A DNA stretch of 49,421 nt from Rhodocyclaceae bacterium UBA6160 (GTDB taxonomy: Bacteria; Pseudomonadota; Gammaproteobacteria; Burkholderiales; Rhodocyclaceae), in contig DIUK01000096.1 in NCBI GenBank assembly GCA_002422995.1, forward strand, positions 1 to 49,421. Reading direction: 5' to 3'. The number at the start of each line of letters is the position of its first letter. The stretch's first letter is position 1. Position numbers and translations under genes: made by a program. Below, piece after piece: positions 4,779 through 47,655 of this stretch. A model generated the notes under the pieces. That model was not told the origin of the DNA. It made no database searches and saw only the letters and a list, made by a program, of their open reading frames with translations.

Positions 4779-4779
4779 T

Positions 4780-9417: not shown

Positions 9418-10484
9418 CGAAGGTAAATAGCGTTTTACCGTTGCCCCATGCGTTGTCCATCGGTCAATTAGAGAATGATTCGGATGTGGTCGCCAAATGG
9501 GAAGCTTATGTCACAGCAGCACCGAATGCGACATTTTTCCATCGGGCAGGTTGGCAAAATATTCTGCAACGAGTGTTTGGTCACCGGACCTTTTTTCTTT
9601 ATGCCATGCGGCAAGGTGTTATCGAAGGGGTGCTTCCGCTCGCGCAAATTAAAAGCAGGTTATTTGGCAACTCGTTAACCTCACTTCCTTTTGCTGTCTA
9701 TGGCGGTGTAGTCGCGGATAACGATGCAGCAGCCGCAATGCTTGAAAACGCAGCCGAGAAGCTCGCACTTGAATTAGGCGTAGCGCATCTTGAATACCGG
9801 AACCTGCACGCGCACCATACTGATTGGCCAACGCAGGATTTGTATGTCACTTTTCGGAAAGAAATTTTTGCCGAAGAAGAAGCCAATATGCTGGCGATTC
9901 CGCGCAAGCAGCGGGCGATGGTGCGCAAAGGGATAAATTATCAATTGCGAGCAGAGTTTGATTCAACAGCCGACCGGTTTTTTTCGCTGTTTGCCGATAA
10001 TGTGCACCGACATGGCACGCCTGCCTTACCCAAAAAATACTTTCAGGCGCTGTTAAATGAGTTTGGCAAAGATTGCGAAATACTGACTGTAGTTTCACCC
10101 GATGGCAATCCGTTGAGCAGTGTGTTGAGTTTTTATTTTCGCGATGAAATTTTGCCCTATTACGCTGGGGATGCAATCGCTGCGCGTGATTTTGCAGCAA
10201 ATGATTTCAAATACTGGGCATTAATGTGCCATGCGGCAAAGCGGGGCATCAAGGTGTTTGATTACGGACGCAGCAAAGTCGGCACGGGCCCGTATTCTTT
10301 CAAGAAAAATTGGGGCTTTGAGCCGCAACCTTTGTATTACGAATATCGACTCTATCAACGAGAGAGTATTCCGCAAAATAATCCCAACAACCCAAAATAC
10401 AAGCTGATGATCAACTTGTGGCGCCGACTGCCACTGCCAGTTGCAAATTTTTTAGGTCCGTTTATTGTACGGAATCTAGGCTAA
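9414..10484 (+). CDS. FemAB-related protein, XrtA/PEP-CTERM system-associated
   Basis: ATFFHRAGW, SLPFAVYGG, IPRKQRAMVRKG, FDYGRSKVGTG and FKKNWGFEP. The ATG at 9414 overlaps the upstream stop. Confidence 0.92.
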   Translation: MTKVNSVLPLPHALSIGQLENDSDVVAKWEAYVTAAPNATFFHRAGWQNILQRVFGHRTFFLYAMRQGVIEGVLPLAQIKSRLFGNSLTSLPFAVYGGVVADNDAAAAMLENAAEKLALELGVAHLEYRNLHAHHTDWPTQDLYVTFRKEIFAEEEANMLAIPRKQRAMVRKGINYQLRAEFDSTADRFFSLFADNVHRHGTPALPKKYFQALLNEFGKDCEILTVVSPDGNPLSSVLSFYFRDEILPYYAGDAIAARDFAANDFKYWALMCHAAKRGIKVFDYGRSKVGTGPYSFKKNWGFEPQPLYYEYRLYQRESIPQNNPNNPKYKLMINLWRRLPLPVANFLGPFIVRNLG

Positions 10485-10510
10485 GTTACTAAGACACGAG
10501 CGAATTGCCT

Positions 10511-11722: not shown

Positions 11723-13326
11723 GCATAAAAGCTGTTGCTGCTCGTATAAACGCCGTCTTGCCAGCGCCGACTTTATCCTGGCATTTTGCAACGCTTGCTA
11801 TTACTTTTGCCGTGCTCGGTCTGGCAGCAATTTACGCAGATACCGTGCAGGGCATGGTATCGATCTGGTGGCGGTCAGAGACATTTACCCACGCGTTTTT
11901 GGTTGCCCCCATCAGCCTGTGGTTGATATGGGAAAAACGTGCAGTATTAGCACGCTACCAACCGCGTCCCGCTTTATGGCTTGCTTTGCCTTTGGCAGCA
12001 TTGGGGTTTGGCTGGCTCCTGGGTGAGCTAGCTGCAGTCAATGCCGTCACCCAGCTTGCTTGGGTGGCGATGGTTATTTTGACGGTGCCACTGATTATCG
12101 GTATACCTGCCGCGCGGCAAATTACCTTTCCGCTGCTCTTTTTATTGTTTGCCGTACCCATTGGTGAATTTGTTATGCCCAAGTTCATGGAATGGACAGC
12201 CACCATGACAGTTTTTGGCTTGCGTGCATCCGGTATTCCGGTTTATCAAGAAGGCTTGCAGTTTGTGATTCCTTCGGGGCGCTGGTCTGTGGTTGAAGCT
12301 TGTAGCGGTGTGCGCTATTTGATTGCCTCGCTTACCGTAGGCACTTTATTTGCCTACCTCAATTATCAATCGACCAAGCGGCGCCTGATTTTTATTCTGA
12401 TTTCTTTACTCGTCCCTATCGTAGCAAACTGGGTACGTGCTTATATCATTGTGATGCTGGGACACTTATCGGGGAATGAGCTTGCTGCAGGCGCTGACCA
12501 TCTGATCTATGGCTGGGCCTTTTTTGGTGTAGTGATTATGATTATGTTTGCTATTGGCATGCGTTGGCGTGAAGATGAAAATCAAGCGTTGCCTGTCAGC
12601 CCCTCCAAGGCTAGCGATGCGTCAGCCACACAACAAAAAAGTCAGTCAGTTGCAAGGCGCATTGTGTCACCGATCATGCTGGCTGCTTTTGTTTTAGCGA
12701 TTGCGCTATTACCTTATGGCGCTTTAAAGTTAGTGGAGGCACAAAATAGCCTAACAGTACCCACGCTCTCACTTAAGCCATTAGCGATAGCTGGTTGGCG
12801 AGAAGCAGCGACTGACTTGCCGGCATGGCAGCCGTCATTTCCTAACCCGTCGCTGAAAGAAATGGCCACTTTCAGCAAAGCGTCGCATCAAGTCAGTGTG
12901 CAAGTTTTTTATTACAGACAACAGGGTTACGATAGGAAGCTGATTAGTTCAGAAAATACGCTAGTAAAAAGCAGTGACACTGCCTGGTTAACCATTGCGC
13001 GCGGTGTTCAGGAAGTAAAAATTGCAGGTCAGTCGTTCGTCGCTAAAAGCGCAATTTTGCAGCAGCAAAGTGCGCTTGGCTCATCACCCATGCAATTCCG
13101 CGTAGTGCATTGGTACTGGATTGATGGCAGATATGTGAGTAATGATCATCTAGGCAAGCTGTGGCTGGCGTGGGCCAAGTTGCGTGGCCGAGGCGATGAT
13201 GCAGCGGCTATTTTTGTGTATTCAAAAGTAGGCGCTTTGGATGAGCAGACAGCGCTCAATGGTTTCATTGCAGATACTGGGCGTGCCTTAGCGGATTTGT
13301 TAGCGCAAACCCGGCATGTTCGTTAA
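11719..13326 (+). CDS. xrtA: Exosortase A (EpsH domain fused to EpsI-like periplasmic domain)
   Basis: Catalytic triad motifs VVEACSGVRY (Cys), VANWVR (Arg) and ADHLIYGW (His). Multiple TMs followed by an EpsI-like domain (KLISSEN, HWYWIDG, GRGDDAA). Confidence 0.95.
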   Translation: MSIKAVAARINAVLPAPTLSWHFATLAITFAVLGLAAIYADTVQGMVSIWWRSETFTHAFLVAPISLWLIWEKRAVLARYQPRPALWLALPLAALGFGWLLGELAAVNAVTQLAWVAMVILTVPLIIGIPAARQITFPLLFLLFAVPIGEFVMPKFMEWTATMTVFGLRASGIPVYQEGLQFVIPSGRWSVVEACSGVRYLIASLTVGTLFAYLNYQSTKRRLIFILISLLVPIVANWVRAYIIVMLGHLSGNELAAGADHLIYGWAFFGVVIMIMFAIGMRWREDENQALPVSPSKASDASATQQKSQSVARRIVSPIMLAAFVLAIALLPYGALKLVEAQNSLTVPTLSLKPLAIAGWREAATDLPAWQPSFPNPSLKEMATFSKASHQVSVQVFYYRQQGYDRKLISSENTLVKSSDTAWLTIARGVQEVKIAGQSFVAKSAILQQQSALGSSPMQFRVVHWYWIDGRYVSNDHLGKLWLAWAKLRGRGDDAAAIFVYSKVGALDEQTALNGFIADTGRALADLLAQTRHVR

Positions 13327-13433
13327 GCGAGAAGATAGGCAAGCATGCTATCCGTCCACGCATCAGTTCACATTCAGGCTCTAAATCAATCAAGAGTAAT
13401 TGATTTGATCTACCCATTTTTTAAGTTGATGAC

Positions 13434-14615
13434 ATGAAAATTCTGTATCACCATCGCACCGCTTCGAAAGATGGCCAAGCCGTCCATATTGAAGAAATGA
13501 TCAATGCAATGCGTGCTCAAGGCCATGAAGTGCGCGTGGTTTCACCCGCACCCGATCATGCCAGTCACGCAGGGCAAATGGGCAATAAAGTCAGCTGGGT
13601 ACATCGTTTGCGGAATTTTTTGCCCAAAGCGCTGTATGAGCTCTTGGAGCTGGCTTATAGCCTGGTGGCTTATCGACGTTTAGCGCGTATGGCCAGAGAT
13701 TTTCAGCCAGATGTAATTTACGAGCGCTACAACCTTTATCTGCTTGCAGGTGTCATGCTTAAACGGCGGCAAGGCATCCCGTTGCTTCTTGAAGTCAATG
13801 CGCCGTTGGTCTTTGAACGCTCTCAGCATAGCGGTGGTTTGGCTTTACCGCGCCTGGCGCGGTGGGCTGAAGGATGGGCCTGGCGCAGTGCAGATTATGT
13901 GTTGCCTGTCACGCACGTGTTAGCCAGCCACGTGAAAGCCTATGGCGTACCTGATACACGTATCGCCGTGATTGCCAATGGCATTAACCGCGCGCATTTC
14001 GCCGTCTCACCAGCGCCGACTTTTGCCAAAGAACAGCATGGCCTTGTTGGCAAACTTGTGCTGGGTTTTACTGGCTTCGTGCGTGAATGGCATGGAGTGG
14101 ATCGCGTGGTTCGCTGGATGGCAACGCCTGCAGCGCCCAGCCATTTACACTTGGTCATTGTCGGCGATGGGCCAGTGCGGGCTGACTTGGAAGCGCTGGC
14201 AAAGCAGCTTGACATCAGCGATCGCGTGCGCTTTACCGGCGTGATCCATCGCGATAAAGTACCTGACTGGGTGTCAGCCTTTGACATCGCCTTGCAACCG
14301 GCCGTCGTCCCTTACGCCTCGCCCTTGAAGTTAATGGAATATCTTGTGCTGGGTAAAGCCATCATTGCGCCGCGCACGCCGAACTTGCTGGAAGTGTTAA
14401 CGGACGGTGACAATGCGCTTATGTTTGATGCAGAAGAACCGATGGGTTTCGAGCAAGCCTTGAGCCGTTTATGCACTGACGAATTATTGCGTCAAAAACT
14501 TGGGGCAGGTGCGCATGCCACCATAGCAAAACTTGATTTAACCTGGGATGGCAATGCACAACGCGTGGTAAACCTGGCCCGGCAAGCGATCACCGCATCT
14601 GCAGCCGCAAGATGA
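13434..14615 (+). CDS. Glycosyltransferase family 4
   Basis: MKILYHHRTASKDGQAVHI, IYERY, GFTGFVREWHG and YASPLKLMEY. Confidence 0.9.
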   Translation: MKILYHHRTASKDGQAVHIEEMINAMRAQGHEVRVVSPAPDHASHAGQMGNKVSWVHRLRNFLPKALYELLELAYSLVAYRRLARMARDFQPDVIYERYNLYLLAGVMLKRRQGIPLLLEVNAPLVFERSQHSGGLALPRLARWAEGWAWRSADYVLPVTHVLASHVKAYGVPDTRIAVIANGINRAHFAVSPAPTFAKEQHGLVGKLVLGFTGFVREWHGVDRVVRWMATPAAPSHLHLVIVGDGPVRADLEALAKQLDISDRVRFTGVIHRDKVPDWVSAFDIALQPAVVPYASPLKLMEYLVLGKAIIAPRTPNLLEVLTDGDNALMFDAEEPMGFEQALSRLCTDELLRQKLGAGAHATIAKLDLTWDGNAQRVVNLARQAITASAAAR

Positions 14616-14631
14616 TTCAGACTGATTGACT

Positions 14632-15795
14632 ATGTCAGGGAAATTGCCTCTTCATATCGTACATCTGGTGTATCGGTTTTCCACTGGCGGGTTGGAAAAT
14701 GTCATTGTCCAGCTGGTCAATGGCCTGCCATCAACACAGTTTCGCCATACTGTCGTAGCGATTAGTGACGTAGACGCGACATTTGCCAAGCGCATCACGC
14801 AGCCGAATGTCGAGGTCATTGCGCTGCATAAGCCACCCGGCCAGCCGTTCAGGTTGTATCCCAAAATGTATCGCTTGCTGCGCCGTCTGCAAGCCGACGT
14901 GCTGCACAGTTGCAATCTCGCCGCCATGGAATTTGCTCCGATAGCCGCACTCGCTCGCGTGCCTTTGCGCGTGCATGCAGAGCACGGCTGGGACGTGGGC
15001 GAATTGGATGGCCATAACCGGCGCTACCGGTTTTTGCGGCAACTACTTAAACCTTTTGTGCATGAATTTATCGCCGTGGCCGAGCCGCAAAGACGCTATT
15101 TGCAAAACAGTATTGGCGTCGCATCAAAACATCTGCATGTCATTCCAAACGGCGTGGATACCGAGCGTTTTCACCCACGTCGCGATGATGATGCGTTACC
15201 CGCAGGCTTTCCATTTCAGCGCGGCAAGCATTGGGTGATCGGTACTATTGGCCGTCAGGCCGCCGTGAAAAATCCGCTACTGTTAGTGGATAGTTTTATC
15301 CAGATCATCCAGTCCCAAGCACCCGACACCCACACCTTGCGCCTCGTGATGGTGGGTGACGGCCCCTTGCATGCATCCATCGTACAACGCATTGCCGAAG
15401 CTAACGTAGCCGACAAAGTGTGGCTAGCCGGTGTGCGCGCCGATATTCCTGAATTGCTGCGTGCGATGGATTGCTTTGTGTTGCCATCCTTGTCGGAAGC
15501 CACCTCATGCACATTGCAAGAAGCAATGGCCACTGCACTACCCATCATCGCTACGCAAGTGGGCGGCAATGCTGCGTTGCTGGACGATGGCCGCTATGGC
15601 AGCCTGGTGCCGTCAGAAAATGTCACGGCGCTGGCGGCCGAAATGCTCAAACAATATGGCTTGCGTGAAAAACAGGCTAATCTGGCCGCAAGAGAATCTA
15701 TTGTTGAACAGTATGGGTTGTCCGCCGTATTGGCGCGTTATGACAACGTGTTTAGCCGTGCCCTATCGCCGGCGCAACGTGCGCATTTAGCTTAA
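14632..15795 (+). CDS. GT4 sugar transferase, PEP-CTERM/XrtA system-associated (TIGR03088-like)
   Basis: HLVYRFSTGGLENVIVQLVN, HAEHGWD, NGVDTERF and FVLPSLSEATSCTLQEAMA. Confidence 0.88.
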   Translation: MSGKLPLHIVHLVYRFSTGGLENVIVQLVNGLPSTQFRHTVVAISDVDATFAKRITQPNVEVIALHKPPGQPFRLYPKMYRLLRRLQADVLHSCNLAAMEFAPIAALARVPLRVHAEHGWDVGELDGHNRRYRFLRQLLKPFVHEFIAVAEPQRRYLQNSIGVASKHLHVIPNGVDTERFHPRRDDDALPAGFPFQRGKHWVIGTIGRQAAVKNPLLLVDSFIQIIQSQAPDTHTLRLVMVGDGPLHASIVQRIAEANVADKVWLAGVRADIPELLRAMDCFVLPSLSEATSCTLQEAMATALPIIATQVGGNAALLDDGRYGSLVPSENVTALAAEMLKQYGLREKQANLAARESIVEQYGLSAVLARYDNVFSRALSPAQRAHLA

Positions 15796-15809
15796 AAGGA
15801 AGCGTCACA

Positions 15810-16997
15810 GTGAAACGCCTAAAAATTCTGATGCTGACCCGGCTTTTTCCTAGCCATGCTTTCCCTGCCTTTGGCACGTTCTGTATCGAACGCGCCAAAG
15901 CCTTGGCCGCTCATGCAGAGGTGCGCGTCATGGTGCCCACGCCTTATTACCCCCAATGGCTGCCTGGCAAAGAAGACTGGAAAAAATGGACCCGTGTTGA
16001 GCGCCAAGGCACAGTAGAAGGCAATATCCATGTCACCTATCCGCGCTATGCCTCCGTGCCAGGCACAGCCACCTGGTTGCAGGGTGTCACCATGGCGCAC
16101 AGCGCGCGTCGCGATCTTGAATCAAGCTATGGCGATTGGCGGCCCGATGTGATTGATGGCCATTTTGCTTTTCCCGATGGTTATGCGGCAGTTCAACTAG
16201 GGCGCAGCATCGGCGCGCCTGTGGTGGTGACCTGCCACGGCTCGGATCTGCGCCAATACCCGGATATCCCCGTAGCAGGCACTATGACGCGCTGGACATT
16301 GCGTCATGCCGATCGCGTTATTTCAGTCAGCTCCGATTTAATGCGCCGTAGCATTGAGTTAGGTTGCCCAACGGAAAGGGCGGTCTTTCTAACCAATGGC
16401 GTTGACCCGTCAAAATTTTCAGTTCGACCTCAACAGGCATGTCGCACCCAGCTGGGTTTGCCTTTAGATAGAAAAATAGGCGTGTATGTCGGTTTTTTGA
16501 TCGACCGTAAAGATCAATCGCTGATTTTGCATGCCTTGGTTGAGATCAGAAAACAAGGTGCAGAAGTTCCTCTTGTCGTGTTGGTCGGCGATGGCCCTAA
16601 CCGGCAAAAGCTGGAAAATGAAGTGGTATCGCTAGGGCTGCAAAATGATGTCATGCTCGTAGGCCAGCAGCGGCATGATGAAGTCGCCCAATGGATGGGG
16701 GCTGCCGACTGGCTGCTTTTGTCGAGTAGTTCCGAGGGCTGGGCAACGGTTTACTTCGAAGCAATGGCATGTGGCCGGCCAGTAATTACATCAAACGTGA
16801 GCTCGGCCAAGGATGCCATTCATCAACCCGCGTATGGCAGCGTTGTTGAGCCGCGCACTGCAGTGGCTTTTGCAGCCGCCATGCAAGCCGCCATGCAAAC
16901 AAGATTTGATGAAAATATCATTCGAGCATACGCCGAACAAAATAGCTGGGATAAATGGGCTGATAATGCAATGCGCTTGTTTGTCAGCCTGGCTTGA
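15810..16997 (+). CDS. Glycosyltransferase family 4 (TuaC-like)
   Basis: GHFAFPDG, TCHGSDL, NGVD and SSSEGWATVYFEAMACG. AAAGGA RBS before the GTG start. Confidence 0.88.
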   Translation: MKRLKILMLTRLFPSHAFPAFGTFCIERAKALAAHAEVRVMVPTPYYPQWLPGKEDWKKWTRVERQGTVEGNIHVTYPRYASVPGTATWLQGVTMAHSARRDLESSYGDWRPDVIDGHFAFPDGYAAVQLGRSIGAPVVVTCHGSDLRQYPDIPVAGTMTRWTLRHADRVISVSSDLMRRSIELGCPTERAVFLTNGVDPSKFSVRPQQACRTQLGLPLDRKIGVYVGFLIDRKDQSLILHALVEIRKQGAEVPLVVLVGDGPNRQKLENEVVSLGLQNDVMLVGQQRHDEVAQWMGAADWLLLSSSSEGWATVYFEAMACGRPVITSNVSSAKDAIHQPAYGSVVEPRTAVAFAAAMQAAMQTRFDENIIRAYAEQNSWDKWADNAMRLFVSLA

Positions 16998-17059
16998 ATA
17001 AAAGTGTCTGCAAGCAAATTAACCTCTGTCTCATTTGAAACAGTTTATAAGGTGTAACG

Positions 17060-17233
17060 ATGGAAGCTTTGTTGCTCACATTAGATGTCATTACCCTAAT
17101 TGCCTTATGTATTTTTGTCCTCAGGGTAGCGCGCACAGGGGATGATGCGAACATGGGCTGGCTAGGCTATTCATTGCACCGCGTAAGAAAAATCAAGAAA
17201 ACATTCGCCGATCAAGGAGATCCGCATGCGTGA
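17060..17233 (+). CDS. Small single-TM membrane protein (57 aa), absent from the ORF track
   Basis: Manual translation: MEALLLTLDVITLIALCIFVLRVARTGDDANMGWLGYSLHRVRKIKKTFADQGDPHA. TAAGGTG RBS; the stop overlaps the next start (ATGCGTGA). Confidence 0.7.
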   Translation: MEALLLTLDVITLIALCIFVLRVARTGDDANMGWLGYSLHRVRKIKKTFADQGDPHA

Positions 17234-18554
17234 CTTGATGTTCCTTGGCGGTTTTTTGGTGCTAGTGCCTTTAGCTTTTCGCAATACCTTTATTGCTTAT
17301 TTGATATGGGGTTGGACCGGGCTGATTGCTATTGATAATTACCTGTTTGGTTTTATGGCGTCAATAAAACTGAACTTCACTTTTGCGCTGATCACCTTTT
17401 TGATGATTCTGCTTAAGAAAGATACAGAGCGTGGCACGATCCCTTTTAATGCCACTGTTGTTTTGTTTATCCTGTTTTTTTTGCAAGGCAGCTTATCGGC
17501 AATTTTTGCTTATGAAGGCAATAGACTGAATTGGTTCTTGTATGACCGGTTCTGGAAAGAGATTTTGTTTGCTTTCATCATGCCCTTGGTGATTGTTAAA
17601 CGTTATCGAATTCATGCGTTTGTTTTGGTGATGTGTCTTGGCATGGGATTTCACGGCTTGATTGACGGGCTCAAGTTTTTCGCAAGTGGTGGCTCGCATC
17701 TGGTGCGAGGTTTCGTTAAATTTGGCGACAATAATCACTTTGCTGTGATGCTGGTTATGGCCATACCGCTATTGCTCTATATGAGCAGCTACGCGAAGCA
17801 TTCGCTACTCAGGCTGGGTGCCTTGGCAGCCGCAATTATCACTATTGCCGCAGTGATAGGCACCCACTCGCGTGGCGGATTTGTTGCCATGACGGCTGTT
17901 GCTCTATGGCTTGTGCTAACCAGCCGTAAAAGACTCCCGGCATTGACTGTCTTTATTGCGGGCGTTATTTTTGTCGTTGCCATTGCGCCGTCAGCGTGGA
18001 CACAGCGTATGGAAACAATCCAGGAAGCTGAACAAGACAGCTCCTTCATGACTCGTGTTGAAGCATGGCAGGTCAGTAGTGCCATTGCCCTGCATAACCC
18101 TGTTCTTGGTGGCGGTTTTCATGCTGTCGCCACACAGTCGGTTTGGGATCGTTTTAAGGGGCAAAAAGGACTGTTAGGGTTTGTTGATGTCGGTTTTGTC
18201 TCTGACGTATTTCGGGCGGCTCACAGTATTTATTTTGAAGTGCTGGGCGATATGGGCTTTCTGGGGTTTTTTATTTTTATGGCACTATTGTTGAATGCCT
18301 TGAAAAACAGTATTCAAATTAATCGCATGGCGAAACAAGGCGGTCTTGATCTGGAATGGGCTTTGGATCTCTCCAGAAGCTTGGCCGCCACGATTTTTGC
18401 ATTCATGGTCGGCGGCTTGACTGTCAGCATTGCCTATACGGAGTTTATTTATATGGCGGTGATGCTGATGGAAGTCTTGAAGCAAGAAGTTAAGCGCCAA
18501 TTGCAAGCTAAAACCTTGTCAGTCGCTACCCCGCTACCGGAAATCAACCAATGA
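17226..18554 (+). CDS. Putative O-glycosylation ligase / Wzy-like polymerase, exosortase A system-associated (TIGR03097-like)
   Basis: MRDL N-terminus, GDNNHFA, THSRGG, DSSFMTRVEAW, PVLGGGF and AAHSIYFEVLGDMG. Confidence 0.9.
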   Translation: MRDLMFLGGFLVLVPLAFRNTFIAYLIWGWTGLIAIDNYLFGFMASIKLNFTFALITFLMILLKKDTERGTIPFNATVVLFILFFLQGSLSAIFAYEGNRLNWFLYDRFWKEILFAFIMPLVIVKRYRIHAFVLVMCLGMGFHGLIDGLKFFASGGSHLVRGFVKFGDNNHFAVMLVMAIPLLLYMSSYAKHSLLRLGALAAAIITIAAVIGTHSRGGFVAMTAVALWLVLTSRKRLPALTVFIAGVIFVVAIAPSAWTQRMETIQEAEQDSSFMTRVEAWQVSSAIALHNPVLGGGFHAVATQSVWDRFKGQKGLLGFVDVGFVSDVFRAAHSIYFEVLGDMGFLGFFIFMALLLNALKNSIQINRMAKQGGLDLEWALDLSRSLAATIFAFMVGGLTVSIAYTEFIYMAVMLMEVLKQEVKRQLQAKTLSVATPLPEINQ

Positions 18555-19513
18555 GCCTGCTGCGCCAATCGCTACAATTATTTGCGCAGGGCAAGCTATC
18601 TGTATTCCTGTTTCATAAAGTGCCGCCTACTGCCGACGCTTTGATTTCCGGAGATTTGGGTCAAGCCGAGTTTGCAAACCTGCTGGACTTGATCAAGGCA
18701 AGTTTTAATGTTCTCCCTTTGAATGAAGCAGTACAGCATTTACACAGAGGAACTTTGCCCGCGCGCAGTGTTGCCATCACCTTTGATGATGGGTATCCCG
18801 AATGGCGTGAAGGCGCAGCGAGACTGCTCGAAGAGCGGTCATTACCCGCTACATTTTTCATTACAACCGGCCAGTTTTTTGGCGACCCCATGTGGAACGA
18901 GCGCCTGGCGCATATTGTGCGCTCCTGCCAGTTGCCAGTGCTTGATACCAGCACAGTACGTTTGCCGTCCTTAAGCATTCGTACCGCAGAAGAAAAAAAG
19001 CAGGCATTAGTGACATTGGAATTTCACTTCAAATATTTGCCACCGCGAATCCGCGAACAGTTTTTGCAGCAGCTAGAGCTTCAAACCGGTGTTAATGCGG
19101 CAGAGGTTTCCACCATGCCGATGGATGACCTCATCGCGATCAGTAATCGTGGCTTTGAAATTGGCGCGCATACGCTGAATCACCCGATACTGGGGCTTTG
19201 CGATGTAAAACAGGCAAGAGACGAAATTGGCCAAACGCGCGAGATTCTCGAAGGCATAATTCATAAACCGGTGACTTCATTTGCCTACCCCAATGGCAGG
19301 CCAGGGGTTGATTTTTCTCACCAGCACATTGAAATGGTCAAACAGGCAGGGTATCGCTATGCTGTTACCACGCAATGGGGTGTGGCGAACAGTAAAACCT
19401 CGCCCTATCAAATTCCGCGTTTTACCCCTTGGGGACCCTCGCGCACAAGAATGACACTACAACTTATCCGCAACTTCTACTCAACCCCTAAGCATCTGAA
19501 AGAACTTGGCTGA
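18551..19513 (+). CDS. Polysaccharide deacetylase (CE4/NodB-like)
   Basis: ITFDDGY, EIGAHTLNHPIL and FAYPNG. Confidence 0.9.
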   Translation: MSLLRQSLQLFAQGKLSVFLFHKVPPTADALISGDLGQAEFANLLDLIKASFNVLPLNEAVQHLHRGTLPARSVAITFDDGYPEWREGAARLLEERSLPATFFITTGQFFGDPMWNERLAHIVRSCQLPVLDTSTVRLPSLSIRTAEEKKQALVTLEFHFKYLPPRIREQFLQQLELQTGVNAAEVSTMPMDDLIAISNRGFEIGAHTLNHPILGLCDVKQARDEIGQTREILEGIIHKPVTSFAYPNGRPGVDFSHQHIEMVKQAGYRYAVTTQWGVANSKTSPYQIPRFTPWGPSRTRMTLQLIRNFYSTPKHLKELG

Positions 19514-20511
19514 TGTCTGCAGCAAAAATTATTTTGCGCAAGCTGTTGTATCGCACCGGGGTGTTGGGCCTCATGCATCGCCTGCGCAACCGCCACACAC
19601 TCACCGTGTTCATGTTTCATCGCGTGTTGCCAAAACAGTCAGCCGAATATCAAACCGCTGAAAAGGAATTCACTTTTACGGTAGAGGGCTTTGGCCAGTG
19701 CCTCGATTTCATTCAAAGCCATTACCACGTCGTATCACAAGCTGAAGTCACCGCACACTTGAACGGCAAGAAGCACTTGCCCGCATGCGCAGGGCTGATC
19801 ACCTTCGATGACGGTTGGCGCGATACGCTCACCCATGCGCTGCCTGAACTCAAAAAACGCAACTTGCCTGCAGTTCTTTTTCTCGCCACTGAAGTCGTTG
19901 ATCTTCAGGCTGAGGATTGGTGGCAGGACGTGCTCGTCGAACTGCTCGCGCAAGAAGGCGGCCTTTCTTCCATAAAGTCGGCGCTGGCGATACGGCAATT
20001 ACCTGACGAAAGCCGGTCTGATGAGCTGCGCCGCATCACGGCGACTTTAGGCGCGATGGAGGAACCGCAGCGCCAGGCGATTTTGCAACCACTGGTGTCA
20101 CGCCCGCCGGGCACACGGCAAATGCTCAACCGTGCCGATCTTGAATTACTGCGCCCGTCGATTACTATCGCCGGCCACGGCCACAGCCACGCACCGCTCT
20201 CGCATCATCCTCACGCCAGTGACGATTTGGCCGCTTGCCGGGCGCAACTGCAAGCCATCGGCGGCGAAGATTCGGTGCTGTCCTTCCCGCATGGCGCGTA
20301 TGCCCCGGCCACGCTGCAACAAGCTCGGGCAGCGGGGTTTCGCGTGTGTTATTCCAGTGATCCGATACTGGTGAATACATCCATCAGCAGATCAACCCAG
20401 ACCCCGCTGGGGCGCATTCATATCCCTGAAAATGAATGGACGAGTGATGCGAAAGGCATCGCTGGTGAAAAGCTGGCGACGTTTCTGTTTTTCCGTACGA
20501 TAGAACAATGA
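19513..20511 (+). CDS. Polysaccharide deacetylase (CE4/NodB-like), second copy
   Basis: MFHRV, ITFDDGW, AGHGHSH and SFPHG. Confidence 0.85.
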   Translation: MSAAKIILRKLLYRTGVLGLMHRLRNRHTLTVFMFHRVLPKQSAEYQTAEKEFTFTVEGFGQCLDFIQSHYHVVSQAEVTAHLNGKKHLPACAGLITFDDGWRDTLTHALPELKKRNLPAVLFLATEVVDLQAEDWWQDVLVELLAQEGGLSSIKSALAIRQLPDESRSDELRRITATLGAMEEPQRQAILQPLVSRPPGTRQMLNRADLELLRPSITIAGHGHSHAPLSHHPHASDDLAACRAQLQAIGGEDSVLSFPHGAYAPATLQQARAAGFRVCYSSDPILVNTSISRSTQTPLGRIHIPENEWTSDAKGIAGEKLATFLFFRTIEQ

Positions 20512-21575
20512 CATCATTCATCCTCGGTAAAAATCTTTACATCCGGCGCATTGATGAACTCACGACAGAAGAAGTCGCTGTGTGGGACCAACTGCTGCTG
20601 GCGGATGATTTACGACGTGCCTTCATGAGCTACCGCTATGTGCGCACCGTCGCTGAAACGGGGGGCGATGTGGTTATCTTGGTGCTCTATGATAATCACG
20701 CCCCATGCGGATTCTTGCCCTTGCAACGCGTTGCTGGCCTGCGCGGGAAAGTGGGGATTTTTGAGCCAGTCGGCGATGTGATGACCGATTATTTTGGCTT
20801 GGTCGCAGCGGCTGGTACGCATCTCAGGATCGAAAAACTTTTAGCAGCAACGCGCGGAAGAGTAAACGCAGTATTGTTTTCGCATCTGGATGAAACGCAG
20901 GCACGGTTTGGTTTGACAGGCGAAGAGCAGCGAGCGGGGCTGCGCACGCGGCTTAGCGCATCGCTTGACCAACCCGCCAGTGATTACTGGGTAAATTTAC
21001 GCAAGTCCGACAAAAAACTGGTCTATGACACCGAGCGCCGCGAAAAAAAATTAATCAATGAAATCGGCCCCATAACATTCGAGTGGACCTCACAAAATCC
21101 AGCCCGTGACATGGCCTGGCTGATTGAATCGAAAAAAGCGCAATACACCCGCACAGGCAAGACGCAAGCCCCGTTGTTCGACAGCCATAAAGTGGCTTTG
21201 CTTAACTGTCTGTTGCAATCGCAAGAAGAAAACTGCCAGGGCGTTTTATCAACCCTGCGCTGTGGTGAAGAAATTATCGCCGTGCATTTCGGGCTGCGTT
21301 GTCACGACATGCTGCACGTCTGGTTTCCAGTGTACAACCCAAAGTATTCGAGCTATTCGCCGGGGCGAATTTTGTTCAAGCATCTTTTTTCGGCGGCCGC
21401 CACTGAGGGTATTCAAGTGTTTGATCGTGGTGAAGGCGATACCCAGGCCAAGCGTGATTTTGCCAACATAACGCACCAGTTTTCACGCGGACTCTGGCGT
21501 GCCACGGGTTGGCGTGGCCTGCGCGCGCGCGTTATGCTCAGCATTTTTTGGCGTTTTAGGCGCTGGATTATCTAG
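20508..21575 (+). CDS. GNAT family acyltransferase (CelD/BcsL-like)
   Basis: MTDYFGLV, AVHFGL, WFPVYNPKYSSYSPGRIL and FDRGEGDTQAK. Confidence 0.85.
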   Translation: MTSFILGKNLYIRRIDELTTEEVAVWDQLLLADDLRRAFMSYRYVRTVAETGGDVVILVLYDNHAPCGFLPLQRVAGLRGKVGIFEPVGDVMTDYFGLVAAAGTHLRIEKLLAATRGRVNAVLFSHLDETQARFGLTGEEQRAGLRTRLSASLDQPASDYWVNLRKSDKKLVYDTERREKKLINEIGPITFEWTSQNPARDMAWLIESKKAQYTRTGKTQAPLFDSHKVALLNCLLQSQEENCQGVLSTLRCGEEIIAVHFGLRCHDMLHVWFPVYNPKYSSYSPGRILFKHLFSAAATEGIQVFDRGEGDTQAKRDFANITHQFSRGLWRATGWRGLRARVMLSIFWRFRRWII

Positions 21576-41901: not shown

Positions 41902-43362
41902 TTATTTTGCTCGGCCGTAAACGTCTTCCAGTCGCACAATATCATCTTCACCCAGATAGCCGCCGGATTGCACCTCAATCATTTCCAGATCGATCTTGCC
42001 AAGATTTTCCAGCCGGTGTACGACGCCGAGCGGGATATAGGTGGATTCGTTTTCCGCAAGCAGGAGTATTTCTTCTCCGCGTGTGACTTGGGCTGTGCCT
42101 TTGACTACTATCCAGTGCTCGGCGCGGTGGTGATGTTTTTGTAAAGAGAGCTGCTTGCCGGGTTTGACGGTAATGCGTTTTACTTGGTAACGGTCGCCCT
42201 GCACGATGCCCTGGTAGCTGCCCCAGGGGCGGTGCACATGGGTATGCAGATCGATTTCGGTGCGACCATCTTTTTGCAGCTTTTCAACAATCGCTTTAAC
42301 TTCCTGGGTGCGATTTTTGGGGGCAATAAGCACGGCATCTGCTGTTTCTATGATGACCATGTCGGTAAGCCCGATTGTTGCAACCAGCCGTGATTCAGCA
42401 CGAATAAGATTATTGGTCGAGTCATGTGCAATGACGTCACCTTCACAGGTGTTGCCGTAAAAGTCGGCGCTGGTGCTACGGCACAAAGTATCCCATGCGC
42501 CAATGTCGTTCCAGCCAGCGGTGAGCGGGATGACAATGCCATCGTCGGTTTTTTCCATCAGGGCATAGTCTATTGAGTCGGCGCGGCAAGCAGAAAAAGA
42601 TTCTCCGTCCAGGCGGACAAAGTCCAGATCAAGCTTGGCGTGATCAACTGCTGTGCGCGCAGGTTCGGTAATTTCGGGCGCCAGGCGATTGAGGGTTTGC
42701 AAGTAACGATCCGCGCGAAACAAAAACATGCCGCTGTTCCAATAATATTCACCTGAATCAAGGTAGCTTTGCGCGGTGTCAGCGTCTGGTTTTTCGACAA
42801 AGCGATCAATGGCAAAGCCGTCTGCAATGGCCGCGCCCCGGTGAATGTAACCGTAACCTGTCTCCGGGCGTTCAGGGGTGATGCCAAAGGTGGCAAAGCG
42901 GCCTGCAGCGGCATGTGGCAAGGCCAATGCCACTGCTTCTTGAAATGCAGCAATATCGGTAACGACATGATCTGATGGCAAAACCAGCATGAGCGGTGAT
43001 TGGCCGCCGCGACGGCACCACTGGGCGGCGGCAGCTAAGGCCGGTGCGGTATTGCGCGCAGCGGGTTCGAGCAGAATGTCGGCTTCAATGCCAATTTCAC
43101 GAATCTGTTCAGCGACTAAAAATCGGTGCGCTTCATTGGTGATCAGGACTGGGCGGCCTAGTCCTGGAAAACCTTGCAGACGCAACAAAGTTGCCTGAAG
43201 TAAAGAGTGTTCGCCTAACAAACGCAAAAACTGTTTGGGATATTGTGAGCGGGATAATGGCCACAGGCGTGTGCCAGAACCGCCGCAGAGCAGCACGGGA
43301 ACAACGGGCGGTTGATTATGAGCAGGCAACGGCGAGTTTTCGTTATGTGTGTTGTTATTCAT
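41902..43362 (-). CDS. manC: Mannose-1-phosphate guanylyltransferase / mannose-6-phosphate isomerase
   Basis: LCGGSGTRLWPLSR..YPKQF, EPAARNTAPA, FVEKP, WNSGMF, RPWG and LQKHHHRAEHW. Confidence 0.95.
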   Translation of the reverse strand: MNNNTHNENSPLPAHNQPPVVPVLLCGGSGTRLWPLSRSQYPKQFLRLLGEHSLLQATLLRLQGFPGLGRPVLITNEAHRFLVAEQIREIGIEADILLEPAARNTAPALAAAAQWCRRGGQSPLMLVLPSDHVVTDIAAFQEAVALALPHAAAGRFATFGITPERPETGYGYIHRGAAIADGFAIDRFVEKPDADTAQSYLDSGEYYWNSGMFLFRADRYLQTLNRLAPEITEPARTAVDHAKLDLDFVRLDGESFSACRADSIDYALMEKTDDGIVIPLTAGWNDIGAWDTLCRSTSADFYGNTCEGDVIAHDSTNNLIRAESRLVATIGLTDMVIIETADAVLIAPKNRTQEVKAIVEKLQKDGRTEIDLHTHVHRPWGSYQGIVQGDRYQVKRITVKPGKQLSLQKHHHRAEHWIVVKGTAQVTRGEEILLLAENESTYIPLGVVHRLENLGKIDLEMIEVQSGGYLGEDDIVRLEDVYGRAK

Positions 43363-43500: not shown

Positions 43501-43998
43501 ATGAGTGATCAAAAAGTTTTATTTGTTTGTACTGGAAATATTTGTCGCTCGCCCACTGCGGAAGGTGTGGCACGTGCCTTGGCGGCAAGACAGGGCGTGG
43601 GGCATTTGTTTACGTTTGATTCGGCCGGCACTATTGGCATGCATAAGGGTGCGCCACCGGACTATCGTGCAGTACAGGCCGCCGCACGAAGGGGCTATGA
43701 TTTGACGCCCTTGCGTGCGCGACAAATTGTTGAGAAAGATTTTTTTCGCTTTGATTATGTCTTGGCGATGGATTGCGGACATTTGAGCGTGCTGGAAAAA
43801 ATTTGCCCCGCAACGGCGTCTGGTCGTCTGGGTTTGTTTTTAGATTATGCCAAGGCAGAAGATTTAGCCAATCCTGTTTTGGATGAGGGAGTTCCAGACC
43901 CTTACTATGGCGGGCCGGAAGGGTTTGACTATGTGCTTACTTTGGTTGAAACCACGACACAACGGCTCATTAACCACTTACTCGAAAATACGCGATAG
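43501..43998 (+). CDS. Low-molecular-weight protein-tyrosine phosphatase (Wzb/PtpA family)
   Basis: P-loop VCTGNICRS, DSAGT and VPDPYYG. Confidence 0.93.
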   Translation: MSDQKVLFVCTGNICRSPTAEGVARALAARQGVGHLFTFDSAGTIGMHKGAPPDYRAVQAAARRGYDLTPLRARQIVEKDFFRFDYVLAMDCGHLSVLEKICPATASGRLGLFLDYAKAEDLANPVLDEGVPDPYYGGPEGFDYVLTLVETTTQRLINHLLENTR

Positions 43999-44100: not shown

Positions 44101-45090
44101 TTAAAAGAGTACTTCGCTGACCGTCGGGTGCGATAAAAATCCCTGCGGGCTGGCGCTGGCGCCATAGGCGCCGGATTGGAAAATAACAAATAAATCGCCG
44201 GGTTCGGTGATGGGCAAGTCCACTTTGTCGGCGAGCAGGTCGAGCGGTGTGCACAAGGGGCCGACGACGCTTGCGGTTTCGGTGTTTGTTGTATTGCCAT
44301 TGCGCTGGCTTTGCGCCGTATCGCCATAGCCGACTTTTTTATCGGTATTTTTTATTTCGCCTGCATGAACAATGGCCACAGGATAATTGCGGCGGATGAC
44401 CTGGCCGAAGTTGCCGCTGGCCGCCAGATGGTGGTTCAGCCCGCCATCGGTGACGAGGTAAGTGTGCCCGCGCGAGACTTTTTTATCGACAATGCGGGTG
44501 ACATAAATCCCGGCTTCGCCCACGAGGTATCGGCCGAGTTCCAGGTGCAGGGCGGCTTGTGGCATGCGTTGCGCGGCATCTTGCGCAATCTCGGTTAATG
44601 CGGTGGCAATCGGCGCGAGTTCCAGGGGCGACTCATGCGCGAAATACGGAATGCCAAAACCGCCGCCTAAGTTAAGCGTTTTGATCGGTGTCGGGGCGTG
44701 TTCTGCCAGGCGCAAAGCCAACTGGTAACTGGCGCGCTGTGCTGCGGCGATGGATTCGCCATTCAGGTTTTGCGAGCCGGCAAAAATGTGCAGGCCTTCA
44801 AACGCCAGGTGCGAGCCGAAGCGTCCCCAGCCATCCAGCAAGTCAGGCACGATTTCTTCGTCCAGGCCAAACGGCCGCGACCCGCCGCCCATGCGCATGC
44901 CCGCGCCCTTGAGCTCAAAGGCGGGGTTGATGCGCAGCGCCACGCGCGCTGTGCGCCCAAGCTTTTGCGCGATGGCGGCCAGGCGCGTGAGTTCATTGAT
45001 GGATTCTGCGTTAATCAACACACCGGCGGCCACGGCTTGTTCCAGCTCGCTATCGCGTTTGCCGGGCCCGGCAAAGCTGATCAGGGTCAC
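44101..45090 (-). pseudogene. Pyridoxal-dependent decarboxylase, exosortase A system-associated (TIGR03099-like, LysA fold), 5'-truncated
   Basis: Retains SFAGPGK, HIFAGSQ, NLGGGFG, ELGRY, GPLCTPLD and GAYG. Lacks the N-terminal region with the PLP lysine (YAxKAN) and the ASxGE motif. Confidence 0.85.
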
Positions 45091-45544
45091 GTGTGATTAG
45101 TGCTCCTAGGGCATCCGGCTGTTGCATGGATTGCAAGCGTCGATTTTCCTGCTGCAAATCGTAGAATCGAAAGGCTCGCTCAATAGTTAAATTCAAGGTT
45201 TCTGGTTCAAAGGGTTTCACGAAAAAATCATATGCACCAAGCGCAATAGCTCGTAGGGCATTGGTTTGCTCATTTTGACCTGTTAAAACGATGACTTTGG
45301 TATCAGGGGCTGCTGTTAAAATTTGTTCCAAGAGCTTGAAGCCTTCAGTGACACCATCTGCGTCAGGGGGTAAGCCTAAGTCCATGGTGATGACTGCAGG
45401 CGTATGACGGCGAACTTGAGAAAGGGCGCTTTCCCTGTCACTGGCAAGAAGCACGTTATATTGGTCAAATGACCAGCGAATTTGTTTTTGTAGAGCCGGG
45501 TCGTCTTCTACCACTAATAACTGTCGTAGTTTTTCTGTTGTCAT
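45050..45544 (-). pseudogene. prsR: PEP-CTERM-box response regulator PrsR, 3'-truncated (receiver domain only)
   Basis: LLVVEDD, MDLGLPPD, VLTG and GAYDFFVKP, directly downstream of prsK. Homology stops at LITRDP, before the sigma-54 AAA+ and HTH domains, and the frame runs out of frame into the decarboxylase. Confidence 0.88.
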
Positions 45545-47655
45545 AGTGAGTTTGGTTGTGCTAAATCTGATTTGGTTTGAATTTCAAGTATAGGTAGTCT
45601 GACACGAAAGCGTGTGCCGATATTTTCTTCGCTTTCTACCGTGATTTCCCCGCCGAGTTCTTGTATGTATTGTCGACTCTCATAAGCGCCTATACCCATT
45701 CCTGCTTGCTTGGTTGTTTGAAAGGGTTTGAAGAGTCGTTCCCGAATAAATTCGGCTGACATGCCTTGCCCGGTATCACCCACTTCAATTTGAGCCATTC
45801 CCGCTTCACGGCCGACAGTCATCCATACTTTGCCTTGAGCATCAGTTGCATCTAATGCATTTTGAACCAAATGGCCTATCACGCGTTCTATGCGCTCTTC
45901 CTGACCGCGAATAGAGACTTTTTCATGAATGGTAAGGTCAACAGCAGGGCGCGAGGCAATTTTTGAGCGTTGAATCCGCTCTGCAATTTGATCCAAGCGG
46001 ACACCACTAAAAGGGTCCGCAGTGGTTGCGCCTTCACGTAACTGCAGCATCAGCTGTCGCATGCGGTCTACAGAGTGACTTACTGTTGAGAGCATGTCTT
46101 TTTGGAACTCTGCGTTATCTGCGTGGCGTTCAGCGTTTCGTACAACCAGGGAAAGTTGCGTCAGAATATTTTTGAGGTCGTGGACAACAAAAGCAGACAT
46201 ACGATTAAAGGAATCAAACTTGCGTGACTCCAGTAAGGCTTCTGTTGCTTGCATCTGTGCTAAAAACGTCGCCGCTTGGCGGCCAGCCGTTTTCAATAAA
46301 TCATTAACCTCCCAGTTAAGGTCTATTGGCGTTCGCGATGTATTAAGAATCACAAAGCCGACCATGCCAGCGGATGTGCGTAAAGGAATGACTAGCCAGG
46401 CGGTAGACATTTCAAGCAACCAAGAGGGTAATTGCAGTTCGCCATAGCGTCCAGGCTTGGCGCGGTACTCCTCCAGGCTGAGTACCCAGCCGGAAGTATC
46501 TAAAGTCTTGATAATTTCACTTTGGGGTGTTTCGGTAATATCCGAGACAGGAAAGTTCCAGCGAGCGCTTTGAATGAATTTTTCTCCAGAAATATCCTTC
46601 GTCCACAGCGCGCCAGCGGGGCTTTCGACCATATCTGCTAAGCCACGAATGACTTGTTGTCCTAGTTGTAATACGCTATTTTCAGAACATAAGGCATTCG
46701 TAAATTTGAGCCATTCTTCTCGATAGTCGTAACGATAGCGAAAGAAGTTTTTACCAATGACTACTTTAAGCCAGGCGCGAACAGAGCCGGATAACCAGAG
46801 CAAAATAAGCAGCAAAAAAGCAGCGAATAAAACACCGATTTGTAAGGCGCCACCCCAGCTACCCCCTAGAAATCGAACGTAATAACCGGCCGCAGAGGTG
46901 GCAAGAAGGTAAATGCCAACGAGTGCCAGTGTAGCGGTTTGAAAGACGGCTGTTTTAGAGAGGGTGATGTTCAGCGGACGTGATTGCGTGCGATAGATAG
47001 TCAATACGAGTAAGGGGATAATTGACGCAGACGCAAATCCACGCACGGCAAAAGTATCACCATCAATTTGCTTTAGCATGACGGTGATGGAATAAAAGTA
47101 CAAATCAAAAACAAAAATGGCGACTAACCCAATGGCCAGTGGCTTAATGTTCCAACGAGACTCTTCTGTCGTGTTTCGGTATAACTGTTCCAGCAGTACT
47201 ATTCCAAAAATAACGAGCGCAAGCCCGGCGTAATGGGCGGTATATGTTGCTGCTAGAGAGTAAGGTTCCAGTATGCGAAGTGTTTGCAATGCCAGACTGA
47301 GAAAGGTGAGCGTGCCACCAATAAAAAACAAGCGGGAGGGACGCCATTCAGGTGGGGGACTGCGGTCAGTTGGCGAGGGCAAAAGTAACAACGTTAGCAA
47401 AAAAAACCACGAGCCATAGCGCAGTGCATCAAAAACTTCGTGAATTGGTTGCAGAGGAATAAAGGTGTAGAGGTGAACACTTGTTCCGGTGGCAGCCCAT
47501 AGGGCTGTGAGTATCGCTGCAGCAATGAGTGCATGACGAATCCGGTTTGATACTGCCGCCGACTGTAAGCGGACAAGATGAACCGCGAGGGCGCTATAGC
47601 CAAATAAGGCTAGTCCGTAACCCCAAAGTGCAAGAAGTGATAGCTCGCTATTCAT
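45541..47655 (-). CDS. prsK: XrtA/PEP-CTERM system histidine kinase PrsK
   Basis: N-terminal TMs, FRYRYDYREEW, GAF domain, H-box FVVHDLKN, N-box HLVQNA, DTGQGM and GMGIGAYE. Confidence 0.95.
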   Translation of the reverse strand: MNSELSLLALWGYGLALFGYSALAVHLVRLQSAAVSNRIRHALIAAAILTALWAATGTSVHLYTFIPLQPIHEVFDALRYGSWFFLLTLLLLPSPTDRSPPPEWRPSRLFFIGGTLTFLSLALQTLRILEPYSLAATYTAHYAGLALVIFGIVLLEQLYRNTTEESRWNIKPLAIGLVAIFVFDLYFYSITVMLKQIDGDTFAVRGFASASIIPLLVLTIYRTQSRPLNITLSKTAVFQTATLALVGIYLLATSAAGYYVRFLGGSWGGALQIGVLFAAFLLLILLWLSGSVRAWLKVVIGKNFFRYRYDYREEWLKFTNALCSENSVLQLGQQVIRGLADMVESPAGALWTKDISGEKFIQSARWNFPVSDITETPQSEIIKTLDTSGWVLSLEEYRAKPGRYGELQLPSWLLEMSTAWLVIPLRTSAGMVGFVILNTSRTPIDLNWEVNDLLKTAGRQAATFLAQMQATEALLESRKFDSFNRMSAFVVHDLKNILTQLSLVVRNAERHADNAEFQKDMLSTVSHSVDRMRQLMLQLREGATTADPFSGVRLDQIAERIQRSKIASRPAVDLTIHEKVSIRGQEERIERVIGHLVQNALDATDAQGKVWMTVGREAGMAQIEVGDTGQGMSAEFIRERLFKPFQTTKQAGMGIGAYESRQYIQELGGEITVESEENIGTRFRVRLPILEIQTKSDLAQPNSL

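What the first reader, a model, noticed from the sequence alone, without database searches (positions are those of the whole stretch)
44101..45544. Deletion/rearrangement junction fuses half of prsR to a headless decarboxylase
Seen: the - strand reads …ATCACACGTGACCCTGATCAGCTTTGCCGGGCCCGGCAAA. PrsR similarity ends at ITRDP and decarboxylase similarity starts at LISFAGPGK in another frame, within about 10 nt (45078-45090). Hand-counted GC is 117/180 (65%) for 44881-45060 and 76/180 (42%) for 45121-45300. PrsR loses its sigma-54 activator and DNA-binding domains, and the decarboxylase loses its PLP lysine. Established: PrsK/PrsR drive PEP-CTERM gene expression needed for floc formation in Zoogloea. 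Inference: a multi-kb deletion, probably including prsT and the acyl-CoA ligase, that switches off flocculation, or else a misassembly.
Basis: partly seen in the sequence, partly recalled or inferred. Interest (0 to 1): 0.7.

Follow-up and report, generated by a model that had tools for sequence, protein, structure and literature searches.

The report
Recent deletion knocks out floc-regulation genes
In one population of a Rugosibacter-like water bacterium, a real deletion, likely about 30 kb long, joins the front of a regulator gene to the back of an enzyme gene and removes genes that related bacteria need to clump into flocs, so these cells likely cannot clump; it is an ordinary kind of loss-of-function mutation, likely recent.

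Summary
The junction is real, at window base 45081. A separately assembled contig of run X1 (probably the source sample) crosses it with no mismatch. Same-species strains from four other studies and two public contigs match up to that base and then continue into intact genes. Two collinear congeners have 31.4 and 34.1 kb between the two breakpoints, holding the 3' two-thirds of prsR, prsT, epsB, two PEP-CTERM genes, hydrolases, ugd, galE and the acyl-CoA ligase. No ortholog of these was found elsewhere in this 60%-complete genome. The two ends share one base, with no repeat or IS; a perfect 18-bp palindrome ends 5 bases from the break. Both remnants are undecayed and the rest of the XrtA/EPS cluster is intact, so the event is probably recent. 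PrsR keeps only its receiver domain; the decarboxylase lacks its PLP lysine. Loss of flocculation is inferred from Zoogloea and Aquincola mutants, not shown here. Verdict: a genuine, population-specific loss-of-function deletion of a known kind. A genus-wide 25-nt repeat resembling DNA uptake sequences, seen in passing, may deserve more attention.

The parts
45541..47655 (-). prsK, PEP-CTERM system histidine kinase, intact (704 aa)
   Evidence: TIGR02916 801 bits, full length; 18 synonymous and 2 non-synonymous differences from intact strain L035
45050..45544 (-). prsR remnant: 154 native codons (receiver domain, linker, first 6 residues of the sigma-54 domain) plus 10 new residues, the last 9 read out of frame from decarboxylase DNA
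   Evidence: TIGR02915 1-147/445; intact allele is 453 aa with Sigma54_activat at 149-315
45081..45081 (.). Deletion junction; one base shared by both ends
   Evidence: All same-species and congener alignments stop at this base from either side; X1 contig 44992-45779 crosses it with 0 mismatches
45058..45075 (.). Perfect 18-bp palindrome inside the decarboxylase, ending 5 bases from the junction
   Evidence: 27 perfect palindromes of 18 bp or more in 1.75 Mb; imperfect in three congeners
44101..45090 (-). Headless exosortase-A-associated PLP decarboxylase: native from 45081, open to its stop; possible new GTG start at 45090 with an AGGAG 12 bases upstream (use untested); lacks the PLP-lysine motif
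   Evidence: TIGR03099 95-397/398; lysine motif at residue 63 and break at residue 102 of the G010 frame; upstream sequence
43501..43998 (+). Low-molecular-weight protein tyrosine phosphatase, downstream neighbour, also next to the decarboxylase in G001 and G010
   Evidence: PF01451; synteny
41902..43362 (-). manC (mannose-1-phosphate guanylyltransferase/isomerase), intact
   Evidence: TIGR01479 full length
11719..13326 (+). Exosortase A (xrtA), intact
   Evidence: TIGR03109 over cut-off
2550..21575 (+). Surviving XrtA-type exopolysaccharide export and modification cluster (export protein, chain-length determinant, tyrosine autokinase, TIGR03016, ATPase, deacetylase, FemAB-like, glycosyltransferases, O-glycosylation ligase)
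   Evidence: Ten TIGR030xx system models over their cut-offs besides XrtA; collinear with G001, G010 and G011

Best explanation
A chromosomal deletion, likely recent and likely about 30 kb long, cut prsR and a PLP decarboxylase gene in mid-frame and joined them at one shared base, and it likely leaves this population unable to switch on its PEP-CTERM surface proteins or to build flocs. Shown: the junction, its exact base, the intact alleles in other strains, the lost domains, the gene content of the interval in congeners. Inferred, how it arose: Ku-independent illegitimate end-joining or template switching with no usable homology, possibly set off by the 18-bp palindrome next to the break. Inferred, what it does: PrsK can at most phosphorylate a receiver-only PrsR with no sigma-54 activator or DNA-binding domain, so the surviving PEP-CTERM gene on contig C158 would stay off despite its sigma-54-type promoter; PrsT and the priming glycosyltransferase EpsB are gone, so the intact export cluster would lack its starter enzyme; any decarboxylase product would be inactive.
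For: Junction in sequencing data: X1 contig of 788 nt covers 44992-45779 with 0 mismatches, 89 bases beyond the break. Laid on the intact allele L036, contigs of X3 and X7 leave it at the same base with 89 further letters, X2 with 15 (the letters themselves were not shown). Intact state elsewhere: 3 of 3 other-study runs (X4, X5, X10) break at 45081 on both sides and run on; X11 has an 8,833-nt contig across intact prsR; L035 and L036 are 98.9% identical up to 45081 and carry 453-aa prsR followed by prsT. Both flanks are one species: each matches at 99% or more in X4, X5 and X10. Size: 31,412 bp in G001, 34,109 bp in G011 (from coordinates), at least 25.4 kb in the sister genome G010. Content. 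G000 is the only one of 10 prsK-bearing genomes of the genus without a prsT match. Recent: no stop or frameshift in either remnant; 2 differences from three intact strains in the decarboxylase part and 1 conservative change private to this strain in the prsR part among the listed sites; remaining cluster intact. Phenotype by analogy: prsK/prsR mutants of Zoogloea resiniphila are planktonic (PMC9012009, passages, second-hand); prsT and epsB2 mutants of Aquincola lose flocs and are complemented (PMC9850573, passages).
Against: All support for the junction comes from one sample (four runs of equal size, possibly one library), probably the window's own source, and as assembled contigs rather than raw reads. 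The genome is 60% complete, so absence of genes from it is weak evidence alone. Collinearity of the two ends is shown only in congeners; in the same species only about 9.5 kb of the interval was seen (7,567 bp in L036; 1,894 bp beyond the break in an X5 contig). G001 and G011 each have a second EpsB-type gene elsewhere, so an unbinned second copy is possible. Flocculation has not been shown for this genus in what was searched. In Aquincola, prsK or prsK-prsR on a plasmid failed to restore flocs to the prsK mutant. The palindrome link is post hoc, and the junction region folds no better than shuffles (z = -0.98).
Confidence: 0.75

Rival explanations
1. The deletion is real but neutral: the module was little used in this habitat, and the loss is drift in a small-genome lineage that is shedding genes. 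No change in aggregation follows.
For: 3 of 12 congeners (93-97% complete) have no prsK, prsT or xrtA match. G000 has a few other broken genes: of 286 sampled orthologs, 12 besides these two were flagged away from assembly gaps, and the 5 inspected are frameshifted genes or 5'-less remnants. Few PEP-CTERM genes in the genus (1-7 matches in 4 of 5 genomes).
Against: The module is intact in the 4 other studies laid and in 2 public contigs of the same species, prsK differences are mostly synonymous (18 to 2), and the rest of the cluster shows no decay.
Confidence: 0.3
2. The deletion is real and was selected: a non-producing or non-aggregating lineage swept, either by saving the cost of surface polymers while a co-occurring congener supplies matrix, or by losing a phage receptor.
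For: The junction contig has depth like its neighbours (5.9 against 4.6-6.5; contig depth is only a hint of frequency). A much deeper contig in X1 over the decarboxylase carries G010's letters at 35 of 35 listed sites and continues as G010's intact gene does; G010 has full-length prsR and prsT. One event removes regulator, PrsT and priming transferase together.
Against: One event in one sample cannot separate selection from a founder effect. No second truncated prsR among 80 related genome loci (75 full length, 5 cut by the end of the contig). No phage or time-series data were examined.
Confidence: 0.2
3. A rearrangement (inversion or translocation) rather than a loss: the missing genes sit elsewhere in this strain, outside the binned 60%.
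For: 40% of the genome is missing from the bin.
Against: Both flanks keep the orientation and order they have in G001 and G011. None of the intervening genes has an ortholog in the 165 contigs. prsR and the decarboxylase would be broken either way.
Confidence: 0.06
4. A library artefact: an amplification or ligation chimera copied into all four runs of the sample.
For: The four runs are one sample and of near-equal size (810-815 million letters); the library method is not on record; a one-base overlap is what a ligation chimera would also show.
Against: A chimera should leave the intact path beside it and break contigs at the fork; instead the X1 contig runs through unbranched, and depth along the flanks is even. 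No other join of two genes in mid-frame was seen among 286 sampled orthologs (5 of 12 other flags inspected).
Confidence: 0.05
5. An assembler misjoin, or a chimera of two species in the bin.
For: A close congener shares the sample and disturbs assembly inside the decarboxylase.
Against: A different assembly of a single run reproduces the junction letter for letter, and both flanks match one species at 99% or more with like depth in three other studies. The congener differs at 50 of 528 positions there.
Confidence: 0.02

Closest known systems
XrtA/PEP-CTERM system with PrsK-PrsR-PrsT (Haft et al. 2006, PMC1569441; passages read)
   Same: prsK-prsR-prsT order in the intact allele, exosortase A within an EPS cluster, and a PEP-CTERM gene with a -24/-12 motif upstream.
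   Different: Here PrsR is cut to its receiver domain, and PrsT and EpsB were not found; the system is present but broken.
Floc-deficient laboratory mutants: Zoogloea resiniphila prsK/prsR (as described in PMC9012009) and Aquincola tertiaricarbonis prsT and epsB2 (PMC9850573)
   Same: The same gene families are lost (TIGR02915, TIGR02917, TIGR03013).
   Different: Those are laboratory mutants of single genes with a measured phenotype; this is one spontaneous multi-gene deletion in an uncultured population with no phenotype data.
Large deletions stimulated by inverted repeats (PMC3519483; abstract and section 12 read); microhomology-poor illegitimate recombination (recalled, no call)
   Same: Large deletion, no long direct repeat at the ends, an inverted repeat at one end.
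   Different: That study used engineered repeats in reporter constructs; the palindrome here is 18 bp of ordinary coding sequence, and its role is untested.

Membership tests
PrsR (TIGR02915) | Receiver domain, gene directly after prsK | tested here: met
   PF00072 at 10-121; overlaps the prsK stop
PrsR (TIGR02915) | Sigma-54 activator domain and C-terminal DNA-binding part | tested here: not met
   Model covered to 147 of 445, below cut-off; intact allele has the activator domain at 149-315
Exosortase-A-associated decarboxylase (TIGR03099) | Full-length match with the PLP-lysine motif | tested here: not met
   95-397/398, 445 bits under 478.45; motif present in 3 of 3 congeners examined, absent here
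Exosortase-A-associated decarboxylase (TIGR03099) | Follows the TIGR03098 acyl-CoA ligase | tested here: not met
   True in G001; here the upstream DNA is prsR, and the best ligase hit in the genome is 27% identical
XrtA/PEP-CTERM system | Exosortase A inside an EPS cluster | tested here: met
XrtA/PEP-CTERM system | Several PEP-CTERM proteins per genome | tested here: inconclusive
   1 match in the 60%-complete genome; 2-7 in three congeners, two of them inside the deleted interval in G001 and in G011
XrtA/PEP-CTERM system | Complete PrsK-PrsR-PrsT triad | tested here: not met
   PrsK intact, PrsR truncated, PrsT not found
XrtA/PEP-CTERM system | Sigma-54 promoter motif upstream of PEP-CTERM genes | tested here: met
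   -24/-12 match at C158:1912, one of 19 strict matches in the genome, with a short inverted motif at 1809 (the patterns are recalled; a motif match only)
Floc-forming bacteria of the Zoogloea type | Floc formation that depends on PrsK/PrsR and EPS | not testable with these tools
   No phenotype data; analogy only
Deletion by recombination or slippage between direct repeats | Repeat of several bases or more shared by both ends | tested here: not met
   One shared base; best local alignment of the two intact ends scores 7 and is off register (decarboxylase side from G010)
IS-mediated adjacent deletion | IS element left at the junction | tested here: not met
   No extra base between the two gene parts
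Ku-dependent end joining | Ku gene in the lineage | tested here: not met
   PF02735 found in 0 of 5 genomes, three of them 95-100% complete; control positive
Assembly misjoin | Junction absent from other assemblies of the reads, or flanks from two organisms | tested here: not met

The most novel reading that the evidence does not exclude
A natural flocculation-off lineage caught just after a selective sweep: one palindrome-triggered deletion removed the regulator output, PrsT and the priming transferase, and the mutant lives as a matrix non-producer beside a more abundant congener that keeps the whole module. It would be the first step of the full loss or absence of the system seen in 3 of 12 congeners.
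Probability: 0.15. Interest if true: 0.55.

Novelty: new member of a known kind. Interest (0 to 1): 0.3.

Why it matters
It is a natural multi-gene knockout of the PEP-CTERM/EPS aggregation module with intact strains of the same species known from other sites, so it offers a ready comparison for what the module does outside Zoogloea and Aquincola. It also shows that the representative genome of this species misstates the species' gene content: other strains carry the interval. It brings no new gene, mechanism or system, and it rests on one sample, so the interest is modest.

Tried and rejected
Looking for the intact allele in the source-sample runs: X2, X3 and X7 laid on L036 gave depth 0 in 20-22 of the 25 bins lying wholly within positions 1-7475; the listed pieces there are short hits to a dispersed repeat, while control run X11 had depth in 30 of 30 bins. 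The tool warns that a hole in contigs proves nothing, so this is not counted as evidence; a minority intact allele is not excluded. Missing gene halves elsewhere in the bin: not found. GC step as a sign of foreign DNA: rejected. Direct repeats, IS, Ku: not found. Stable fold at the junction: no better than shuffles. Decay of the remnants: not seen; an apparent excess of 3 non-synonymous changes in the prsR part fell to 1 private change once other strains were compared. Recurrent independent loss in the genus: not shown; the three genomes without the system lie at the base of the parE and gyrB trees, mixed with G001, which has it, and the starred branches do not force more than one change (G004 left out of both trees, G000, G002 and G009 absent from the gyrB tree). 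recA search was not used, as G000 has no match. Other truncated prsR among 80 genome loci: none. Earlier scan findings: none returned. Literature: no paper on this module in Rugosibacter or on such a natural deletion in the listings (open-access library only; supplements not read). One search gave two listings, one read in part.

Full report
Setting. The window is the whole of contig C98 of a genome bin of 1.75 Mb in 165 contigs, 51.7% GC, 60% complete. The closest named relatives of its PrsR fragment are labelled Rugosibacter sp. or Rhodocyclaceae/Rhodocyclales (88-93% identity). The contig is an XrtA/PEP-CTERM exopolysaccharide region: export and modification genes with exosortase A at 2550-21575, glycosyltransferases and a flippase, manC, a small phosphatase, then the junction, then prsK.

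The observation. The 164-aa ORF covers TIGR02915 positions 1-147 of 445; the 329-aa ORF covers TIGR03099 positions 95-397 of 398. In intact PrsR the sigma-54 activator domain is residues 149-315, so the cut after residue 154 removes nearly all of it and everything after. In three congeners the PLP-lysine motif lies 39 residues before the break and is absent here (the motif's role is recalled). The join is at base 45081: alignments from both sides end on it, so the ends share one base. The GC step is rare in this genome (133 of 28,086 pairs) but is the native make-up of the two genes.

Is it real? Of 23 runs listed for this stretch I laid 8. Run X1, labelled hydrocarbon metagenome and probably the source, has a 788-nt contig over 44992-45779 with no mismatch, 89 bases past the break, at a depth like its neighbours. 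X3 and X7, of the same sample, have contigs that leave the intact allele at the same base with 89 more letters, X2 with 15; those letters were not printed, so their identity is inferred from the length. These four runs are one sample and are not independent biological support, but they are separate assemblies, which makes an assembler error unlikely. X4, X5 and X10, from three other studies, match both flanks at 99% or more and stop at 45081 from each side with long loose ends. X11, a fourth study, has one contig across intact prsR. An exact-match scan of metagenome contigs returned 2 loci, L035 and L036; both are 98.9% identical to the window up to 45081 and continue as a 453-aa prsR followed by prsT. 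So the species normally has the intact genes, and the junction belongs to one population.

What was lost. In G001 and G011, where both ends lie on one contig in the window's order and orientation, they are 31,412 and 34,109 bp apart (computed); in the sister genome G010 (parE tree 100/100) at least 25.4 kb lies between them on two contigs. In G001 the interval holds prsT, a transglycosylase-like and a protease gene, the HprK-related kinase, epsB (TIGR03013), ABC transporter genes, the system's acyltransferase and two hydrolases, galE, UDP-glucose dehydrogenase and the acyl-CoA ligase (26 ORFs scanned), plus two PEP-CTERM genes. The first five genes after prsR are the same in L036. None of the intervening ORFs of G001, G010 or G011 has a hit in G000 above 44% identity, and G000 is the only one of 10 prsK-bearing genomes in the genus without a prsT match. 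The bin is incomplete, so this is supporting, not decisive. For the species itself only about 9.5 kb of the interval was seen.

Age. The decarboxylase remnant is open to its stop and differs from three intact strains at 2 listed sites, one synonymous and one where the window has G010's residue; the prsR remnant has 1 private conservative change among the listed sites (the variant tables were cut). The remaining cluster scores over cut-off in eleven system models and is collinear with three congeners. This points to a recent event.

How it arose. There is one shared base, no direct repeat, no IS and no inserted base, and Ku was found in 0 of 5 genomes. That leaves illegitimate joining of some kind (inferred). 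A perfect 18-bp palindrome ends 5 bases from the break; the genome has 27 such palindromes, and 265 hairpins of a looser class. By hand, the chance that either end of a deletion falls within 10 bases of one is about 0.1% for the strict class and about 1% for the loose class; the test is post hoc. Inverted repeats raised large-deletion rates in E. coli and M. smegmatis constructs (PMC3519483, abstract and section 12), but those were engineered, and the junction region folds no better than shuffles. I rate a causal role as possible, not shown.

What it does. PrsR is the sigma-54 enhancer-binding protein predicted to drive PEP-CTERM genes (PMC1569441, passages). Z. resiniphila without PrsK or PrsR is planktonic and releases soluble EPS (PMC9012009, passages, describing earlier work I did not read). 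In Aquincola, prsT and epsB2 mutants lose flocs and are complemented, while the prsK mutant was not complemented (PMC9850573, passages). This deletion removes all three of prsR output, prsT and epsB. The one PEP-CTERM gene found in the bin (C158) has a -24/-12 motif upstream and an RpoN-box match exists on C140, so that promoter would lack its activator. A possible GTG start with a weak ribosome site could yield a headless decarboxylase, which would be inactive. All of this is inference; whether the genus flocculates is not shown in the papers listed, and two congeners have a second EpsB-type gene elsewhere.

Selection or drift. For drift: 3 of 12 congeners have no prsK, prsT or xrtA match, and G000 has some other broken genes. 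Of 648 G011 ORFs from 45 stretches (about 0.9 of 2.9 Mb), 286 had orthologs: 258 clean or cut by a contig end, 14 broken at assembly gaps, 14 flagged otherwise, two of them this junction. Five of the other 12 were inspected and are frameshifted genes or remnants, none a join of two genes in mid-frame as far as the comparison with G011 shows; the rest I judged from the table to be paralogs, wrong-strand ORFs or over-long starts. For selection: the module is kept in every other strain of the species seen, and a much deeper contig in X1 carries G010's letters at 35 of 35 listed sites, so a congener whose genome has the intact module shares the sample; contig depth is no measure of cell share. One event in one sample cannot decide this, no second truncated prsR was found among 80 genome loci, and the trees do not show repeated loss.

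Verdict. A genuine, probably recent, population-specific deletion that breaks a known aggregation module. It is a new instance of a familiar kind of mutation. Interest 0.3.

Noticed in passing
Genome-wide; window copies at about 11751, 14000, 32841, 42459, and a degenerate one at 44310-44340 inside the decarboxylase; L036:3659-3683: A dispersed, non-palindromic repeat of about 25 nt (core AAAGTCGGCGCT): 221 copies of the 12-mer in G000 (126 per Mb), 233 of the 25-mer at up to 3 mismatches, 142 of 221 inside long ORFs, only 1 inverted pair; 84-142 per Mb in stretches of five congeners, 0 in 446 kb of non-genus loci and 27 kb of a same-family genome. It resembles a DNA uptake sequence of the Neisseriaceae or Pasteurellaceae kind (resemblance recalled; two papers seen as listings only), at lower density. 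No paper linking uptake sequences to this genus or family appeared in the 15 of 20 listed. Function untested; possibly more interesting than the finding itself.
   Followed up: partly
window 44494-45021 in run X1; G010: A much deeper contig (57 against about 6) over the decarboxylase matches G010's letters at 35 of 35 listed sites: the sister species, whose genome has intact prsR, prsT and decarboxylase, shares the sample.
   Followed up: partly
G000:C161:41863-43355: A sigma-54-type response regulator that is one frame of about 480 aa in congeners is split in two here, at or near a run of A. Real frameshift or assembly error not settled.
   Followed up: partly
G000:C59:3818-5091; C39:1945-3205; C109:3505-4517; C165:5017-5683: Other broken or partial genes relative to G011: a gene with many indels and a frameshift at an A run (isocitrate-lyase-like), and three 5'-less remnants (MnmC-like, unknown, heavy-metal efflux-like). 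The labels are recalled from the sequences, not from a call.
   Followed up: partly
G003, G008, G012: Three congeners, 93-97% complete, have no match to prsK, prsT, xrtA or the decarboxylase; they branch near the base of the genus beside G001, which has the system.
   Followed up: partly
G000:C158:1809-2770: The only PEP-CTERM gene found in the bin, with a sigma-54-type -24/-12 motif at 1912 and a short inverted motif at 1809 in an AT-rich upstream region; a candidate target of the lost PrsR.
   Followed up: partly
window 34550-35160: A short ORF (34603-35079, -) flanked by repeated 'PLSRKGRG'-coding stretches, between a glycosyltransferase and the flippase; present in G011 but not aligned in G001. 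It looks like a small endonuclease-domain gene with flanking repeats (recalled, not tested).
   Followed up: no
window 21783-26028: A four-kilobase block with a UbiA-family prenyltransferase that is 87-89% identical to G011, above the 70-78% of its surroundings, and does not align to G001: possibly exchanged between congeners.
   Followed up: no
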